Sequence record: PZ787336.1
Strand: one strand, 5' to 3'
Source: a phage
DNA: 47,147 bases
Part shown: in pieces, positions 3,781-23,027 of the stretch
How positions within the stretch are numbered: the stretch's first letter is position 1
Layout of the letters: every line of letters starts with the position of its first letter
Position numbers and translations under genes: made by a program
Notes under the pieces: model-generated
Database searches by the model: none
What the model was told of the DNA's origin: nothing
Seen by the model: the letters and a program-made list of their open reading frames with translations, nothing else

Positions 3781-3975
3781 ATGGACGTTGTTATTTTGTT
3801 ACTTTTCGCTGGATTGGTTATATTTGCTTATCTTCTCCCGTCATTTGTGGCATTGCAAAGAAAGCACACAAATACGACCGCAATCTGTGTATTGAATATT
3901 CTTGTCGGATGGAGCTTTATTGGATGGGTTGCGGCACTTGTTTGGGCGTTGGTTAACAGTGGCGACAAAAAATGA
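3781..3975 (+). CDS. superinfection immunity protein (Imm family), small membrane protein
   Basis: 64 aa, two predicted transmembrane helices, conserved GWSFIGWVAALVWAL motif typical of the Imm_superinfect family. Confidence 0.75.
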   Translation: MDVVILLLFAGLVIFAYLLPSFVALQRKHTNTTAICVLNILVGWSFIGWVAALVWALVNSGDKK

Positions 3976-4115
3976 ACGAACAAACAAAAGCTGACCTGAT
4001 TTTCTATACTGATTTGTATGTCGATGCTGGTTATGACTACGAAGAAGCTGAACGCATGGCGAAAGACTTGCTTCGTGTGATTGGTGTGATTTTTGATGAG
4101 GATAAGGTGATATGA
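3972..4115 (+). CDS. hypothetical small acidic protein (47 aa)
   Basis: ATG overlaps the stop of the Imm gene (ATGA), ends overlapping the next start; below the ORF-track length cutoff. Confidence 0.35.
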   Translation: MNEQTKADLIFYTDLYVDAGYDYEEAERMAKDLLRVIGVIFDEDKVI

Positions 4116-4471
4116 ACAATTATGAAGAGATTAGTGATTTTGAGATTAATAAGGCGGTGGCACTAATTGTTGGTGCGACATTTAATGATGATGGCGAGCC
4201 GGTTAGATTTGTCGAATGTGATACAGGTGCTTACGCCGACTTTAATGAGATTGAATTTGACCCATGCAATAAACCAGAGGATGCGTGGCCAATTATCACT
4301 GAAAACAAAATCAGCATAATGTTTGATAGCACCGATACGAGATATGAAGGTGAATATCACGAATGGTGTGACGCGATTTCACATTGCCAAAAGTTCGGAA
4401 TTCAGCATCAGTCTAACCCACTCCGCGCCGCCATGATCGTCTTCCTGAAAATGAATGAGGATAAGTTATGA
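4112..4471 (+). CDS. hypothetical phage protein
   Basis: 119 aa ORF translationally coupled to neighbours in the plus-strand island. Confidence 0.55.
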   Translation: MNNYEEISDFEINKAVALIVGATFNDDGEPVRFVECDTGAYADFNEIEFDPCNKPEDAWPIITENKISIMFDSTDTRYEGEYHEWCDAISHCQKFGIQHQSNPLRAAMIVFLKMNEDKL

Positions 4472-4662
4472 GCAAGTGGATTAAGTGTAGTGAGCGAATG
4501 CCAAACGAAGAAGATGTTTTGGTTTATTGCTCAGACACAAAAGAGCAGATGGTTGGATTCCATAAGGGGAAAGGACTATTTCAATTTTTCTATATGAATG
4601 GAGTTGAGGGAGTCTGTGAGCCAACACACTGGATGCCACTACCAGAGCCACCACAAGAATAA
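4468..4662 (+). CDS. DUF551-like phage protein
   Basis: 64 aa with C-terminal HWMPLPEPP motif characteristic of DUF551. Confidence 0.55.
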   Translation: MSKWIKCSERMPNEEDVLVYCSDTKEQMVGFHKGKGLFQFFYMNGVEGVCEPTHWMPLPEPPQE

Positions 4663-4689: not shown

Positions 4690-5409
4690 TTATCCGGTTA
4701 CAGTGCAAGCTGTACTGATGATGATTTCAGGGTCGGTAGACGAATCCGTGACAGTAACGGTGTACACACCAGCTGTAGGGCTTGCCAGTGATGCGCCTGA
4801 TTCGCCACCAACAACTACGCCATCTTTTCGCCACACATAGGTGTATGGTGATACGCCGCCTTCAACAGCAACAGTTAACGGGCTTCCAGTGCTGCCAGTT
4901 GGCGATAAGTCGGTAGTGAACGCCAGAGGTTCAAGGCTTTCGACGGTAACGCTGTCAGAATCGTAAACCTTAAACTCAAGGCTGCCAGTAACAATGTCGT
5001 TCGTGCCACCTTCGTAGCTGATGCTGGTGATGTTGCAGTACGCGGTAACGATAGTTGCACCAGTTACCTGACGCACCCACAAGGAAGGCTGGCGACGCGC
5101 TTTCAGTTCAGTGGCGTAAATCTCAACCAGACGATGGAAGCCAAATTCATCGCTCGGGTCATTCTTGCGGATTTCAACCTCTGCACTGATGGTCATGTCA
5201 GAGCTGGTAACGAGAGTGGAAACAAAGCCGCCAGCGGTATCCGCTTCCGACGTAGTGGTCTGTGGCGAGTAGTCAACGCCTTTACTGGTGGTTGAGCCTA
5301 AATACTTCCAGTCGCCTGCATCCGGAACTGCGTCGCCGCACCCTTCAGCAAGGAACAGTCGGGTCATGCGACCGACCAGAACGCCTTTATCATTTGCACA
5401 AATAGCCAT
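4690..5409 (-). CDS. major tail protein with C-terminal Ig-like domain
   Basis: 239 aa; Thr/Ser/Gly/Val-rich C-terminal region typical of Ig-like (Big_2) domains on siphovirus tail tube proteins; position in tail module. Confidence 0.8.
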   Translation of the reverse strand: MAICANDKGVLVGRMTRLFLAEGCGDAVPDAGDWKYLGSTTSKGVDYSPQTTTSEADTAGGFVSTLVTSSDMTISAEVEIRKNDPSDEFGFHRLVEIYATELKARRQPSLWVRQVTGATIVTAYCNITSISYEGGTNDIVTGSLEFKVYDSDSVTVESLEPLAFTTDLSPTGSTGSPLTVAVEGGVSPYTYVWRKDGVVVGGESGASLASPTAGVYTVTVTDSSTDPEIIISTACTVTG

Positions 5410-5442
5410 TTCGATCTCCGAATTGTGTTAGCTGCTAACGTG

Positions 5443-5457
5443 GTGATTATATCACAG
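5443..5457 (-). promoter_or_regulatory. extended -10 promoter (TGTGATATAAT on minus strand) for the major tail protein gene
   Basis: plus gtgattatatcac; same 13-mer recurs at 23028-23040. Confidence 0.5.
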
Positions 5458-5460
5458 GTG

Positions 5461-5489
5461 TTGACAGTGATTATTTTGTGGTGTAGATT
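5461..5489 (+). promoter_or_regulatory. sigma70-like promoter TTGACA-N17-TAGATT, divergent from the major tail protein promoter
   Basis: TTGACA 5461-5466, TAGATT 5484-5489; no ORF downstream before the terminator at 6009-6034. Confidence 0.5.
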
Positions 5490-6034
5490 GTATTTCAGAT
5501 AGTTTTCGTGAGCGACTTTGCGGACTTTTTAGAAACTGACCACAAAGATAAATGCAAACGATGATGTTGTTCTGATGGCGGCGTAATAGCCTGTAAGTCA
5601 GCAAGGTCTTCCGATTCCTTGTAAACAAATTCGGCGCACTGGCCCGGTGTGATTAATAATGGGCACGCAACAGGTAAGAGCATTGAGAGGTTCGATTCCT
5701 CTTGGTTATTGAGGCCGCGAGGCGCGCTGGAATTGATCAACCAGTGTGAAATCCAATAGGCATAGGTTCAGTGCTCTTTCCGTTGTGGTGAATGCGCAGG
5801 TCGATGCGCAAGTAAGCAACCGATGGCGAGGTAGTGTATAAGGCGGTCGCTGCAAGCCTTGAACTGAAAATCCCGTCACGCCGGAGTTCGACACCGGCCA
5901 CCATAACACTTAACATTCAGCGTTATCGCAATCATATGTAGGGGTATGTATGGGTTACGGGGCTGGATGTTAAGAAAGCATGCTGGCAATGCTTAAACCA
6001 GCAATAAGGCCGCTTCGTGCGGCTTTATTTATTT
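5490..6034 (+). other. promoter-to-terminator plus-strand locus without ORF; candidate non-coding RNA
   Basis: no plus-strand ORF longer than 17 codons; bounded by promoter and hairpin terminator; contains a tRNA-like T-arm GAGAGGTTCGATTCCTCT. Confidence 0.25.
6009..6034. terminator. rho-independent terminator
   Basis: GCCGCttcgtGCGGC followed by tttatttattt. Confidence 0.6.
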
Positions 6035-6403
6035 CACAACCCGCAAAAGTAACTCATGCACAGGTCTTTTCTCTTCCGTTAACATCGGCCTACCGAGCGG
6101 CGCTTGCAACTGGATGTAGTTAACGCATGAATCAATCGGGTGTGTTTTGATGTATTCGATAATCTCATTGGCCTTCGAATCAACATCAGCAACATTGTAT
6201 TGGCCTTGTTTGCCAACAACATACAGCGAAAAATAGAAGTCACCGCCGAGGCCATCCATAACCTGAGTGCCACCGTTGGATTGCAGAACAATAAATTGCT
6301 CACTTCCATCTCCGGTGTCATTCCAGAACTGCAGCTGCGAAGTCCAGCCATCGTACAATCCTGCATCCTGAAGATATGCATCAACCAGTTCAAGCATATT
6401 CAT
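6029..6403 (-). CDS. putative tail terminator / neck protein
   Basis: 124 aa ORF between head-tail joining genes and major tail protein; position-based. Confidence 0.45.
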   Translation of the reverse strand: MNMLELVDAYLQDAGLYDGWTSQLQFWNDTGDGSEQFIVLQSNGGTQVMDGLGGDFYFSLYVVGKQGQYNVADVDSKANEIIEYIKTHPIDSCVNYIQLQAPLGRPMLTEEKRPVHELLLRVVK

Positions 6404-22946: not shown

Positions 22947-23027
22947 GATAACCTCGTGTAGGTTCGTGATGAAGATTGCAGCAGGGCGTCACGTTCACCT
23001 TTTCGACTGGCCGGTCTAGCTGCACTT

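What the first reader, a model, noticed from the sequence alone, without database searches (positions are those of the whole stretch)
5490..6034. Plus-strand promoter-to-terminator unit with no ORF, between tail genes: candidate non-coding RNA
A TTGACA-N17-TAGATT promoter at 5461-5489 fires away from the major tail protein gene into about 540 bp that contain no plus-strand ORF longer than 17 codons and end at a hairpin terminator (6009-6034). The region holds a near-perfect tRNA T-arm (AGAGG-TTCGATT-CCTCT at 5686-5702) and a related TCCGATTCCT element about 80 nt upstream. A 620-bp gap is unusual inside an otherwise compact structural operon.
Basis: seen in the sequence. Interest (0 to 1): 0.6.

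Follow-up and report, generated by a model that had tools for sequence, protein, structure and literature searches.

The report
Phage anti-tmRNA with own tag template
The gap holds a widespread, unannotated phage RNA that copies the message part of the bacterial ribosome-rescue RNA (tmRNA) but has no tRNA part; its front end is antisense to the host's tmRNA, so the phage may silence or rewrite the host's protein-degradation tag.

Summary
The transcription unit is real: a conserved promoter (5461-5489), about 540 nt, and a terminator hairpin (6009-6023).

The conserved core lies upstream, at 5498-5664.

- **Message part.** It is a tmRNA-type mRNA-like domain: invariant U-5/A-4, resume codon GCA at 5554, ten codons (ANDDVVLMAA), and a stop inside a hairpin, followed by two H-type pseudoknots. 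Covariation supports the fold: 95% of cells paired and 13 of 21 pairs with double changes. The tag frame shows codon periodicity (6.4/4.3/10.0).
- **No tRNA part.** No tRNA-like domain was found anywhere in the 47-kb window.
- **Antisense arm.** The 5' arm (5498-5541) is antisense to host tmRNA nt 53-108, which span pseudoknot 1, the resume codon and codons 1-6. None of 1000 shuffles reached its alignment score. The target is the same in E. coli and Klebsiella, and in Salmonella apart from one extra A.
- **Distribution.** Homologues occur in 867 phage records (P1, Felix O1, Kuttervirus, lambdoid prophages) and in 12.6% of complete E. coli genomes. None is annotated.

The best reading is a trans-acting RNA that docks on host tmRNA, masks its tag template and offers its own. 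This step is inferred, not shown. I found no prior description.

The parts
5461..5489 (+). Sigma-70-type promoter, TTGACA-N17-TAGATT. The inferred start is about 5496.
   Evidence: One search gives a 10/12 match. The promoter is conserved in L001, L007, L014, L016 and L151, directly upstream of the conserved RNA 5' end. The start site is inferred, not mapped.
5498..5541 (+). 5' arm antisense to host tmRNA nt 53-108. Blocks: TAGTTTTCGT 5500-5509 pairs with host 97-106; GCGAC 5512-5516 with host 87-91 (includes the resume codon); TTTGCGG 5517-5523 with host 75-81; CTTTTTAG 5525-5532 and CTGACC 5536-5541 with the host pseudoknot 1 loop and stem.
   Evidence: The reverse complement aligns to E. 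coli SsrA 53-106 with score 38, against a shuffle maximum of 32 (0/1000). The score against the phage's own sense region is 19. In 54 of 56 distinct arms the longest perfect match falls at host 96-106.
5542..5553 (+). Twelve-nucleotide A-rich spacer (ACAAAGATAAAT) with invariant U at -5 and A at -4 before the resume codon.
   Evidence: Alignment A1 has invariant columns T8, A9 and A10. A86 at -4 is essential in E. coli tmRNA (PMC2481249).
5554..5589 (+). tmRNA-type tag reading frame without a start codon: GCA AAC GAT GAT GTT GTT CTG ATG GCG GCG TAA TAG, encoding ANDDVVLMAA**.
   Evidence: Sub-threshold Rfam matches to tmRNA families cover this region. There are 22 tag variants, and 132 of 133 have exactly 10 codons. 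Entropy by codon position is 6.36/4.33/10.04, and the other frames carry stops.
5572..5601 (+). Hairpin equivalent to tmRNA helix 5, with the stop codons in its loop. The outer stem is 5572-5575 with 5598-5601.
   Evidence: helix 1: 99.5% of cells paired. Pair 34/57 switches between G-C (31 sequences) and A-U (23).
5602..5634 (+). H-type pseudoknot a. S1 is 5602-5606 with 5617-5621; S2 is 5611-5614 with 5631-5634.
   Evidence: helices 2 and 3: 98.5% and 98.6% of cells paired. Six pairs show changes on both sides.
5636..5664 (+). H-type pseudoknot b. S1 is 5636-5639 with 5647-5650; S2 is 5642-5645 with 5661-5664. Its loop is the invariant TGATTAATAA.
   Evidence: helices 4 and 5. S1 is 99.5% paired with CG/UA/GC switches. 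The S2 alignment is imperfect (79%), but every longer variant is self-complementary.
5668..5785 (+). Long hairpin, the 'H1 cassette'. The stem is CAACAGGTAAGAGCA 5668-5682 with TGCTCTTTCCGTTG 5772-5785.
   Evidence: The stem covaries across phages and the tip differs even in close relatives. This is judged by eye and was not counted formally.
5782..5907 (+). Degenerate tRNA-like module: GTTGTGGTG 5782-5790, a hairpin at 5793-5807, the T-like hairpin GCCGG-AGTTCGACA-CCGGC at 5880-5898, and CACCATAAC at 5899-5907.
   Evidence: Searches show relatives with a canonical T-arm and an anticodon-like arm. The module has no G3:U70 and no encoded CCA, and it gets no Rfam hit in the window. At least 25 of 119 loci carry it.
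5909..5974 (+). Thirteen-base-pair hairpin, CTTAACATTCAGC 5909-5921 with GCTGGATGTTAAG 5962-5974. Its role is unknown.
   Evidence: Read from the sequence. It is conserved in L001 and L014.
6009..6034 (+). Intrinsic terminator hairpin (6009-6013 with 6019-6023) plus a T-rich tail. It overlaps the end of the minus-strand gene 6029-6403.
   Evidence: The same hairpin ends the unit in swi2, after an extra tRNA-Met.

Best explanation
The locus encodes a phage non-coding RNA of about 170 nt (core 5498-5664, followed by variable structured modules). It is a tmRNA derivative without a tRNA-like domain.

**Shown**
- It carries a tmRNA-type tag template: U-5/A-4, resume codon GCA, 10 codons, and a stop in a helix-5-like hairpin.
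- Two covariation-supported pseudoknots follow the template.
- The tag frame evolves like a translated frame.
- The 5' 44 nt are antisense to the host tmRNA from pseudoknot 1 through tag codon 6.
- The window has no tRNA-like domain of its own.

**Inferred**
- The free 5' arm seeds on the single-stranded host tag codons 3-6 (10-11 contiguous Watson-Crick pairs).
- Pairing then zips across the resume codon into pseudoknot 1. This masks the host template and tethers the phage RNA to the host tmRNA-SmpB particle.
- The phage resume codon, a constant 12 nt after the duplex, is then presented in place of the host's.
- Ribosomes rescued by the host tRNA-like domain would add a phage-specified tag (…LMAA, …LAVA, …MVAA) instead of …ALAA. 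That tag would probably have altered ClpXP/SspB recognition.
For: **tmRNA-like template**
- Rfam sub-threshold hits to tmRNA_permuted and beta_tmRNA fall on 5533-5635.
- Among 133 elements there are 22 tags. All but one have 10 codons, with consensus AN[DE]x x[FYVM]L[AM][AV]A.
- Entropy by codon position is 6.36/4.33/10.04. Half of single-nucleotide codon differences are synonymous. The other two frames carry stops in 54/55 and 42/55 sequences.
- U-5 and A-4 are invariant, and A86 is essential in E. coli tmRNA (PMC2481249).

**Structure**
- 95.2% of cells are paired and 134 cells are compensatory. No shuffle of 500 reached the observed value, and slid controls gave 33-47%.

**Antisense arm**
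- The best host site is nt 56-108 for most of the 55 distinct 5' domains tested, with dG of -39 to -48 kcal/mol.
- Local alignment scores are 38-47 against shuffle maxima of 32-38. No shuffle of 1000 reached the score for the window, P1, ECBP1, Kuttervirus and a lambdoid prophage.
- Scores against the phage's own sense copy are only 18-22, which is about the shuffle mean.
- In 44 of 56 arms the perfect complement is at least 9 nt, and in 54 of 56 it lies at host 96-106.
- Lineages use different pairing solutions for the same host stretch.

**Target conservation**
- The target is identical in E. coli and Klebsiella; the two Salmonella copies differ only by one extra A in the A-tract. It is nearly invariant in 31 ssrA variants.

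**No own tRNA-like domain**
- Searches find none.
- No constant downstream partner exists across 119 loci.

**Expression context**
- The element always lies on the sense strand of known transcripts: the P1 ban leader, the lambdoid late region after Q, and the Felix O1 tRNA cluster.
Against: - There is no experimental evidence of the transcript, of a duplex with host tmRNA, or of the tag on proteins.
- A ribosome using a template held only by base pairing to the tmRNA body, rather than covalently, has a precedent only in two-piece tmRNAs.
- A roughly 50-bp imperfect duplex could instead be an RNase III substrate.
- The codon periodicity could be partly inherited from an ancestral bacterial tmRNA, or confounded by helix-5 constraints on codons 7-10.
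- Arms of some lineages (L027, L031, L045) match the host only weakly beyond block 1 (52-57 of 1000 shuffles reach the score).
- A whole-RNA duplex energy against host tmRNA was not better than shuffles.
- Cross-host compensatory changes (Erwinia, Serratia) could not be tested.
Confidence: 0.45

Rival explanations
1. Pure anti-tmRNA. The RNA only inhibits host trans-translation. It would do so by masking the resume codon and tag template, by unfolding pseudoknot 1, or by guiding RNase III cleavage. The tmRNA-like body would act as a decoy for S1, SmpB or ribosomes, and its frame would not be translated.
For: The antisense arm is the best-supported trans-acting feature. Pairing around the resume codon is known to abolish tmRNA activity (A86C structure, PMC2481249). 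A phage RNA that carries only the tRNA-like domain (DS6A) is reported to inhibit endogenous tmRNA (PMC4131195; PMC11915505).
Against: The tag frame shows third-position-biased variation, a constant 10-codon length, a conserved stop and conserved U-5/A-4. A decoy does not need these. The 12-nt spacing between arm and resume codon is constant.
Confidence: 0.27
2. A complete phage tmRNA in an unusual gene order (two-piece or permuted). A downstream tRNA-like module (window 5782-5907, or neighbouring tRNA-like genes in other phages) would be processed, receive CCA, be aminoacylated, and work with the upstream template piece.
For: With relaxed thresholds ARAGORN calls tmRNAs with exactly this tag. 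In prophage L017 the Rfam tmRNA model matches a tRNA-like-domain piece about 230 nt downstream (E=3e-6). The module has a covarying T-arm and anticodon-like arm in L017, L028 and L114. Many loci lie next to tRNA genes.
Against: The module has no G3:U70 and no CCA. In the window it has a 9-nt 'T-loop' and gets no Rfam tRNA or tmRNA hit. At least 40 of 119 loci lack both the module and a tRNA within 1 kb. The module also occurs alone, as in ENT47670. The Felix O1 candidate looks like a decayed tRNA-Arg. The acceptor pairings from relaxed ARAGORN are at chance level. This reading does not explain the arm's complementarity to the host tmRNA.
Confidence: 0.13
3. A decaying relic. Fragments of a captured tmRNA gene and dead tRNA genes persist in a phage RNA-gene 'junkyard', or are mobile-cassette debris, with no present function.
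For: The surrounding modules (H1 tips, tRNA-like pieces) are hypervariable and shuffled between phages. The window has lost the tRNA-Met that relatives keep.
Against: The core is conserved across unrelated phage families in 867 records, with compensatory changes in five helices and an intact frame in 132 of 133 copies. The arm is kept complementary to the host rather than to the phage's own copy.
Confidence: 0.06
4. The gap is protein-coding on the minus strand. Bas80 annotates 'hypothetical proteins' there, and the window has an 81-codon minus-strand ORF at 5495-5740.
For: Minus-strand ORFs exist and were annotated in Bas80.
Against: There are no Pfam hits. The conserved core occurs in unrelated genomes in other contexts where these ORFs are not kept. 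The conservation pattern is RNA-like (paired covariation) and fits a plus-strand frame.
Confidence: 0.02

Closest known systems
Bacterial tmRNA (SsrA; Rfam RF00023)
   Same: A-rich upstream tract with U-5/A-4, resume codon GCA, tag starting AND and ending in hydrophobic-Ala-Ala or -Val-Ala, 10 codons, stop codon in the loop of a helix-5-like hairpin, and H-type pseudoknots downstream.
   Different: It has no acceptor stem, T-arm or CCA of its own and no pseudoknot 1. It has two pseudoknots instead of three after the tag. It carries an extra 5' arm that is the reverse complement of tmRNA nt 53-108. It scores far below the Rfam thresholds (27 against 47 bits).
Two-piece (permuted) tmRNAs of alpha- and betaproteobacteria and cyanobacteria (RF01849-51, RF04321)
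   Same: The template is not covalently continuous with the whole tRNA-like domain, and the pieces are held together by base pairing. The best Rfam similarity is to the coding piece of beta_tmRNA (model positions 206-304).
   Different: In known two-piece tmRNAs both pieces come from one gene and together rebuild a normal tRNA-like domain. Here the proposed partner is the host's own complete tmRNA, and the pairing masks the partner's template.
tmRNA carrying only the tRNA-like domain, from mycobacteriophage DS6A, and full tmRNA genes of mycobacteriophages and Bacillus phage G
   Same: A phage-encoded derivative of tmRNA. The DS6A-type form is reported to inhibit endogenous tmRNA (PMC4131195, PMC11915505).
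   Different: This is the mirror image: it keeps the mRNA-like half and loses the tRNA-like half. It is found in phages of Enterobacterales, where surveys reported no phage tmRNA.
Prophage-encoded base-pairing RNAs that target host small RNAs (anti-sRNAs such as AgvB and AsxR of EHEC prophages; own knowledge)
   Same: A phage RNA with a 5' seed complementary to an abundant host non-coding RNA. In lambdoid prophages it is encoded in the late region after Q.
   Different: The target is tmRNA, the complementarity spans about 50 nt, and the antisense arm is fused to a functional-looking copy of the target's own template.

Membership tests
tmRNA (one-piece, RF00023) | tRNA-like domain: a 7-bp acceptor stem with G3:U70, a T-arm and a 3' CCA | tested here: not met
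   ARAGORN at default settings finds none. An Rfam E-value scan of the whole 47-kb window finds no tRNA or tmRNA tRNA-like-domain hit. The candidates at 5686-5709 and 5782-5907 lack G3:U70 and CCA.
tmRNA (one-piece, RF00023) | Tag reading frame with a resume codon and no start codon, preceded by conserved U-5/A-4, and ending at a stop in helix 5 | tested here: met
   PMC2481249.
tmRNA (one-piece, RF00023) | Pseudoknot 1 upstream of the tag and pseudoknots 2-4 downstream | tested here: inconclusive
   Two downstream H-type pseudoknots are supported by covariation. There is no pseudoknot 1, and RNAalifold finds no conserved structure in the 5' 55 nt.
tmRNA (one-piece, RF00023) | Score at or above the Rfam gathering threshold | tested here: not met
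   The best scores are 27.3 bits (RF04321, threshold 47) and 18.1 bits (RF01850, threshold 84).
Two-piece / permuted tmRNA | An acceptor piece and a coding piece encoded together, rebuilding a chargeable tRNA-like domain | tested here: not met
   There is no constant partner piece: at least 40 of 119 loci have neither the module nor a tRNA within 1 kb. The acceptor pairings from relaxed ARAGORN are at chance level.
tRNA | Cloverleaf recognised by ARAGORN or Rfam RF00005 | tested here: not met
   The T-arm at 5686-5702 is isolated and not conserved.
Trans-acting antisense (base-pairing) RNA | Conserved, significant complementarity to a defined target RNA at an accessible site | tested here: met
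   The target is the same in E. coli and Klebsiella, and in Salmonella apart from one extra A in the A-tract. The single-stranded state of host tag codons is from established knowledge, not tested here.
Trans-acting antisense (base-pairing) RNA | A physical duplex with the target in vivo, and an effect on the target | not testable with these tools
   This needs RIL-seq, CLASH, or genetics with compensatory mutations.
Trans-translation template in use | The tag peptide is found on rescued proteins and depends on SmpB and an alanyl-charged tRNA-like domain | not testable with these tools
   Only indirect evidence exists: codon periodicity and constant frame length.

The most novel reading that the evidence does not exclude
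The phage RNA is a template-swap device. It hybridises to the host's tmRNA, silences the host tag template, and makes the host's ribosome-rescue machinery append a phage-encoded peptide tag with different proteolytic fate to rescued proteins. This would be a trans-acting reprogramming of trans-translation, present in P1, Felix O1, Kuttervirus, lambdoid prophages and many siphoviruses.
Probability: 0.4. Interest if true: 0.95.

Novelty: categorically new. Interest (0 to 1): 0.9.

Why it matters
**What would be new**
- This would be the first RNA known to carry only the message half of tmRNA.
- It would be the first viral RNA found to be aimed at the host's tmRNA.

**Scale of what it explains**
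- It would account for a conserved, never-annotated block in hundreds of phage genomes.
- These include the model phages P1 and Felix O1, therapeutic Kuttervirus and Felixounavirus phages, and prophages or phage-plasmids in about one complete E. coli genome in eight.

**Questions it makes testable**
- Can a tmRNA template work in trans?
- Do phages manipulate ribosome rescue and tag-directed proteolysis during infection?

**Practical use**
- It suggests a simple tool for re-coding the SsrA tag in vivo without touching ssrA.

**Effect on annotation**
- 'Hypothetical proteins' called across this locus are probably spurious.
- Reports of '0 tmRNAs' in phage genome announcements miss this class.

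Tried and rejected
1. **The T-arm at 5686-5702 as part of a tRNA or tRNA-like domain.** Rejected. There is no cloverleaf. The following TGGTTAT finds only a weak G-U-rich partner. The hairpin tip differs in Bas80, DS8 and swi2.
2. **The upstream GTGGTG (5477-5482) as the acceptor 5' strand pairing with CACCAT (5899-5904).** It lies in the promoter spacer and is absent in L015, P1, Felix O1 and Kuttervirus.
3. **The Felix O1 tRNA-like RNA with G3:U70 and ACCA as a split tRNA-like domain.** It aligns as a tRNA-Arg(UCU) without a D-arm, and a genuine tRNA-Arg sits at that place in L057. It is most likely a decayed tRNA.
4. **A docking helix between GUUUUCGUC and GAUGGAAGC next to a T-arm (L017, P1, Serratia 3M).** In L017 that motif belongs to a covarying anticodon-like hairpin. 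No compensatory change is seen in L028 or L114.
5. **Relaxed ARAGORN tmRNA calls.** The tag is right, but the acceptor pairings are no better than chance.
6. **Whole-molecule RNAduplex against host tmRNA.** Uninformative: -88.5 against a shuffle mean of -90.9. Only the 5'-domain analysis was informative.
7. **Pairing of the 5' end with host pseudoknot 3 (GUGGAAGCCCU).** It is the best site only for P1-type arms. It was superseded by the tag-codon site.
8. **Cross-host covariation.** ssrA of E. coli and Klebsiella is identical in the target, and Salmonella differs only by one extra A.
9. **RNAalifold on the core.** It recovered only the nested stems. The pseudoknots had to be specified by hand.
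10. **Literature.** Nine searches and six papers found no description of this element.
Full report
**What is at the coordinates**

The 619-bp gap (5410-6028) lies between two minus-strand tail genes: the major tail protein (4690-5409) and the gene at 6029-6403.

- On the plus strand there is a TTGACA-N17-TAGATT promoter at 5461-5489.
- A GC-rich hairpin at 6009-6023 is followed by TTTATTTATTT.
- The T-arm-like AGAGG-TTCGATT-CCTCT is exactly at 5686-5702.
- ARAGORN finds no tRNA or tmRNA in the whole window.
- The claim that no plus-strand ORF exceeds 17 codons is not accurate. There are GTG-initiated ORFs of 31-36 codons, and an ATG ORF of 47 codons starts at 5980. Minus-strand ORFs of 59-81 codons also exist. 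None matches Pfam.

**The conserved part is a tmRNA-like tag template**

- A permissive Rfam scan gave only sub-threshold matches, all to tmRNA families and all over 5533-5635. They align GCA AAC GAT GAT GTT GTT CTG ATG GCG GCG TAA to the tag-coding region.
- blastn against 50,697 phage records found 867 records with a match.
- The shared core is roughly window 5498-5665. It is present in unrelated phages, always unannotated:
  - Swiduovirus- and Deseoctovirus-type siphoviruses;
  - Felix O1, inside its tRNA cluster;
  - P1, in the ban operon leader between the dicF-like region and tRNA-Asn;
  - Kuttervirus and other Ackermannviridae;
  - Schitoviridae and Jedunavirus;
  - Erwinia phage Y2.
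- In E. coli, 684 of 5,426 complete genomes carry it. There are 187 chromosomal copies and 548 on P1-like plasmids.
- In lambdoid prophages it lies between the Q antiterminator and the holin gene.
- A pattern scan of one genome per species found true members only in Enterobacterales: Rosenbergiella, Erwinia, Pantoea, Rouxiella and Pseudocitrobacter.

**The tag frame behaves like a translated frame**

- Across 133 elements there are 22 different peptides. In 132 of them the frame has exactly ten codons plus a stop. The consensus is AN[DE]x x[FYVM]L[AM][AV]A.
- Four further lineages give ANDSEVLMAA, ANDNTFLAVA, ANDNAFLMAA and ANDNEMRAAA.
- In 55 distinct nucleotide versions, summed entropy by codon position is 6.36, 4.33 and 10.04.
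- Half of all single-nucleotide codon differences are synonymous. The other two frames contain stops in 54/55 and 42/55 sequences.
- There is no start codon in frame.
- The two nucleotides at -5 and -4 (U, A) are invariant in the alignment. In E. coli tmRNA, A86 at -4 is essential and sets the frame (PMC2481249).

**Structure**

On an alignment of 55 distinct sequences (A1) I specified five helices:
- the outer stem of a helix-5-like hairpin that holds the stop codons in its loop (5572-5575 with 5598-5601);
- pseudoknot a, S1 5602-5606 with 5617-5621 and S2 5611-5614 with 5631-5634;
- pseudoknot b, S1 5636-5639 with 5647-5650 and S2 5642-5645 with 5661-5664.

The counts support this fold:
- 95.2% of cells form standard pairs, against 33-47% when partners are slid.
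- 13 of 21 pairs show changes on both sides, and 134 cells are compensatory.
- None of 500 shuffles reached the observed values.

**No tRNA-like domain**

- An E-value-mode Rfam scan of the entire 47-kb window, which is essentially the whole phage genome, found no tRNA or tmRNA tRNA-like domain.
- The T-arm at 5686-5702 lies in the tip of a long hairpin (stem 5668-5682 with 5772-5785). That stem covaries between phages, but the tip is different even in Bas80, DS8 and swi2.
- Downstream is a degenerate tRNA-like module (5782-5907). Some relatives have a canonical T-arm and a covarying anticodon-like arm there. In prophage L017 the Rfam tmRNA model matches a tRNA-like-domain piece with E=3e-6.
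- This module lacks G3:U70 and CCA. It also occurs without the template, and the template occurs without it. Of 119 loci, at least 25 have the module, 60 have a real tRNA within 1 kb, and about 40 have neither.
- With relaxed thresholds ARAGORN reports tmRNAs with exactly this tag in nearly all loci, including window 5402-5710. Its acceptor pairings are at chance level.
- The Felix O1 G3:U70 tRNA-like RNA is best read as a decayed tRNA-Arg.

**The 5' arm is antisense to the host tmRNA**

The invariant 5' end AGUUUUCGU had no partner within the phage RNA. Tested against E. coli SsrA (L139 94-456; structure), it pairs with the tag codons.

In the window the blocks are:
- TAGTTTTCGT (5500-5509) is a perfect complement of SsrA 97-106 (ACGAAAACUA, codons Asp-Glu-Asn-Tyr).
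- GCGAC (5512-5516) complements 87-91 (GUCGC, including resume codon G90).
- TTTGCGG (5517-5523) complements 75-81.
- The rest of the arm, to 5541, pairs with the loop and 5' strand of pseudoknot 1.

The comparative tests are:
- For most of the 55 distinct 5' domains tested, the best RNAduplex site is SsrA 56-108, with dG of -39 to -48 kcal/mol.
- The reverse complement of the arm aligns to SsrA 53-106 with scores of 38-47. Dinucleotide-shuffle maxima are 32-38. No shuffle of 1000 reached the score for the window, ECBP1, P1, L017 and PhaxI, and 1-6 of 1000 did for L024, Felix O1, Serratia 3M and Erwinia Y2. L027 and L031 are weaker, at about 5%.
- The score against the phage's own sense copy is only 17-26, which is about the shuffle mean.
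- The longest perfect complement is at least 9 nt in 44 of 56 arms, and it lies at SsrA 96-106 in 54 of 56. Only 1.1% of shuffled arms reach 10 nt.
- Lineages use different solutions for the same host stretch. The window type pairs GCGAC+UUUGCGG. The ECBP1 type pairs GCGAUUA+UGCGG. Felix O1 pairs GCGUCUAUUUUGC contiguously across the A-tract.
- The target (SsrA nt 45-125) is identical in E. coli and Klebsiella pneumoniae. Two Salmonella copies have one extra A. It is nearly invariant among 31 ssrA variants recovered from prophage flanks.
- The spacer between the end of the arm and the phage resume codon is 12 nt in nearly all of the window-type lineages inspected.

**Interpretation**

*Shown.* The RNA is a tmRNA-derived template with two pseudoknots. 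Its frame is under coding-type constraint. It has no tRNA-like domain of its own. Its 5' arm is kept complementary to host tmRNA rather than to its own copy.

*Inferred.* The arm seeds on the single-stranded host tag codons and extends across the resume codon into pseudoknot 1. This inactivates the host template. Pairing around the resume codon is known to abolish activity. The duplex also tethers the phage template to the host tmRNA-SmpB particle, so rescued ribosomes would read the phage tag.

The phage tags keep the AAND…aromatic/hydrophobic part of the host tag. They replace the C-terminal ALAA by LMAA, LAVA or MVAA. From established knowledge of ClpX and SspB recognition, this should change proteolysis. 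That was not tested here.

*Rivals.*
- A pure antisense inhibitor or RNase III guide. This does not explain the coding signature.
- A complete two-piece phage tmRNA that uses the downstream tRNA-like module. This has no constant partner and no Ala identity, and it does not explain the arm.
- A relic, which is contradicted by the conservation.
- Minus-strand protein coding, which has no support.

**Comparison with what is known**

- The 2014 tmRNA survey found ssrA among phages only in mycobacteriophages and Bacillus phage G, plus a form in DS6A that carries only the tRNA-like domain and inhibits tmRNA (PMC4131195).
- The 2025 tmRNA database lists 79 bacteriophage sequences. It requires a tRNA-like 3' end with CCA positions (PMC11915505).
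- Genome announcements for Kuttervirus and Felixounavirus phages report no tmRNA.
- No paper in nine full-text searches describes a template-only tmRNA-like RNA or a phage antisense RNA to tmRNA.
- The element fails the defining tRNA-like-domain test for tmRNA membership. It shares the template features of tmRNA. It meets the sequence criterion of a trans-acting antisense RNA.

**Verdict**

The element appears to be a new class. The mechanism is a well-motivated inference that simple genetics and mass spectrometry can test.

Noticed in passing
window 5909-6008, compared with L014 1349-1425 and L001 3066-3142: Close relatives (swi2, Bas80) carry a tRNA-Met between the long hairpin and the terminator of this RNA unit. 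The window has a clean deletion of it.
   Followed up: partly
window 5668-5785; L017 3920-3990 and 4180-4250; L023, L024, L028, L046, L050: A repeated 'H1 cassette' (GGTAAGAGCATTG, variable tip, CAGTGCTCTTTCC) flanks the tmRNA-like unit on one or both sides in many phages. The stems covary: AAGAGCA/TGCTCTT, AAGCTGC/GCAGCTT, AATTGCA/TGCAATT, AAGGGCGC/GCGTCCTT. The tips are hypervariable and often look like tRNA debris. They may be processing stems or insertion sites for mobile RNA cassettes.
   Followed up: partly
L017 4233-4376; L028 and L114 (about +630 nt from the unit); L011 1490-1640: A family of tRNA-like modules has the acceptor GTTGTGGTG/CACCACAAC and A73. In some members there is a canonical T-arm and a covarying anticodon-like arm with the conserved loop CAGCGCA. 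The module also occurs alone in Cronobacter phage ENT47670. Its function is unknown.
   Followed up: partly
L002 (phage P1) 1483-1494 and 1926-1937: In P1 the 5' end AGGGUUUUCGUC can form a 12-bp helix with GGUGGAAGCCCU about 425 nt downstream. The segment GUGGAAGCCCU is identical to E. coli tmRNA nt 202-212 (pseudoknot 3). P1 may therefore retain more of an ancestral tmRNA.
   Followed up: partly
L001 2543-3046 (Bas80_0055 and Bas80_0056); window 5495-5916 minus strand: 'Hypothetical protein' genes are annotated on the minus strand across this RNA locus in Bas80, and equivalent ORFs exist in the window. They have no Pfam match and are probably spurious calls.
   Followed up: partly
window 3781-4662 (+): A small island of plus-strand genes sits between minus-strand tail genes. 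It includes a 64-aa membrane protein (3781-3975) that corresponds to the 'superinfection immunity protein' of Bas80. This is a second moron-like insertion in the tail operon.
   Followed up: no
window 22961-23026 (-): A near-threshold Rfam match to int-alpA RNA, 31.5 bits against a gathering score of 35.8.
   Followed up: no
L016 1290-1350; L005 1265-1320; L028 (end of the stretch shown): Another conserved non-coding module (CCAGACGATATCTGAGTGAC…AACAGATGG…) is shared by DS8, ECBP1-like phages and a siphovirus contig in the same RNA arrays.
   Followed up: no
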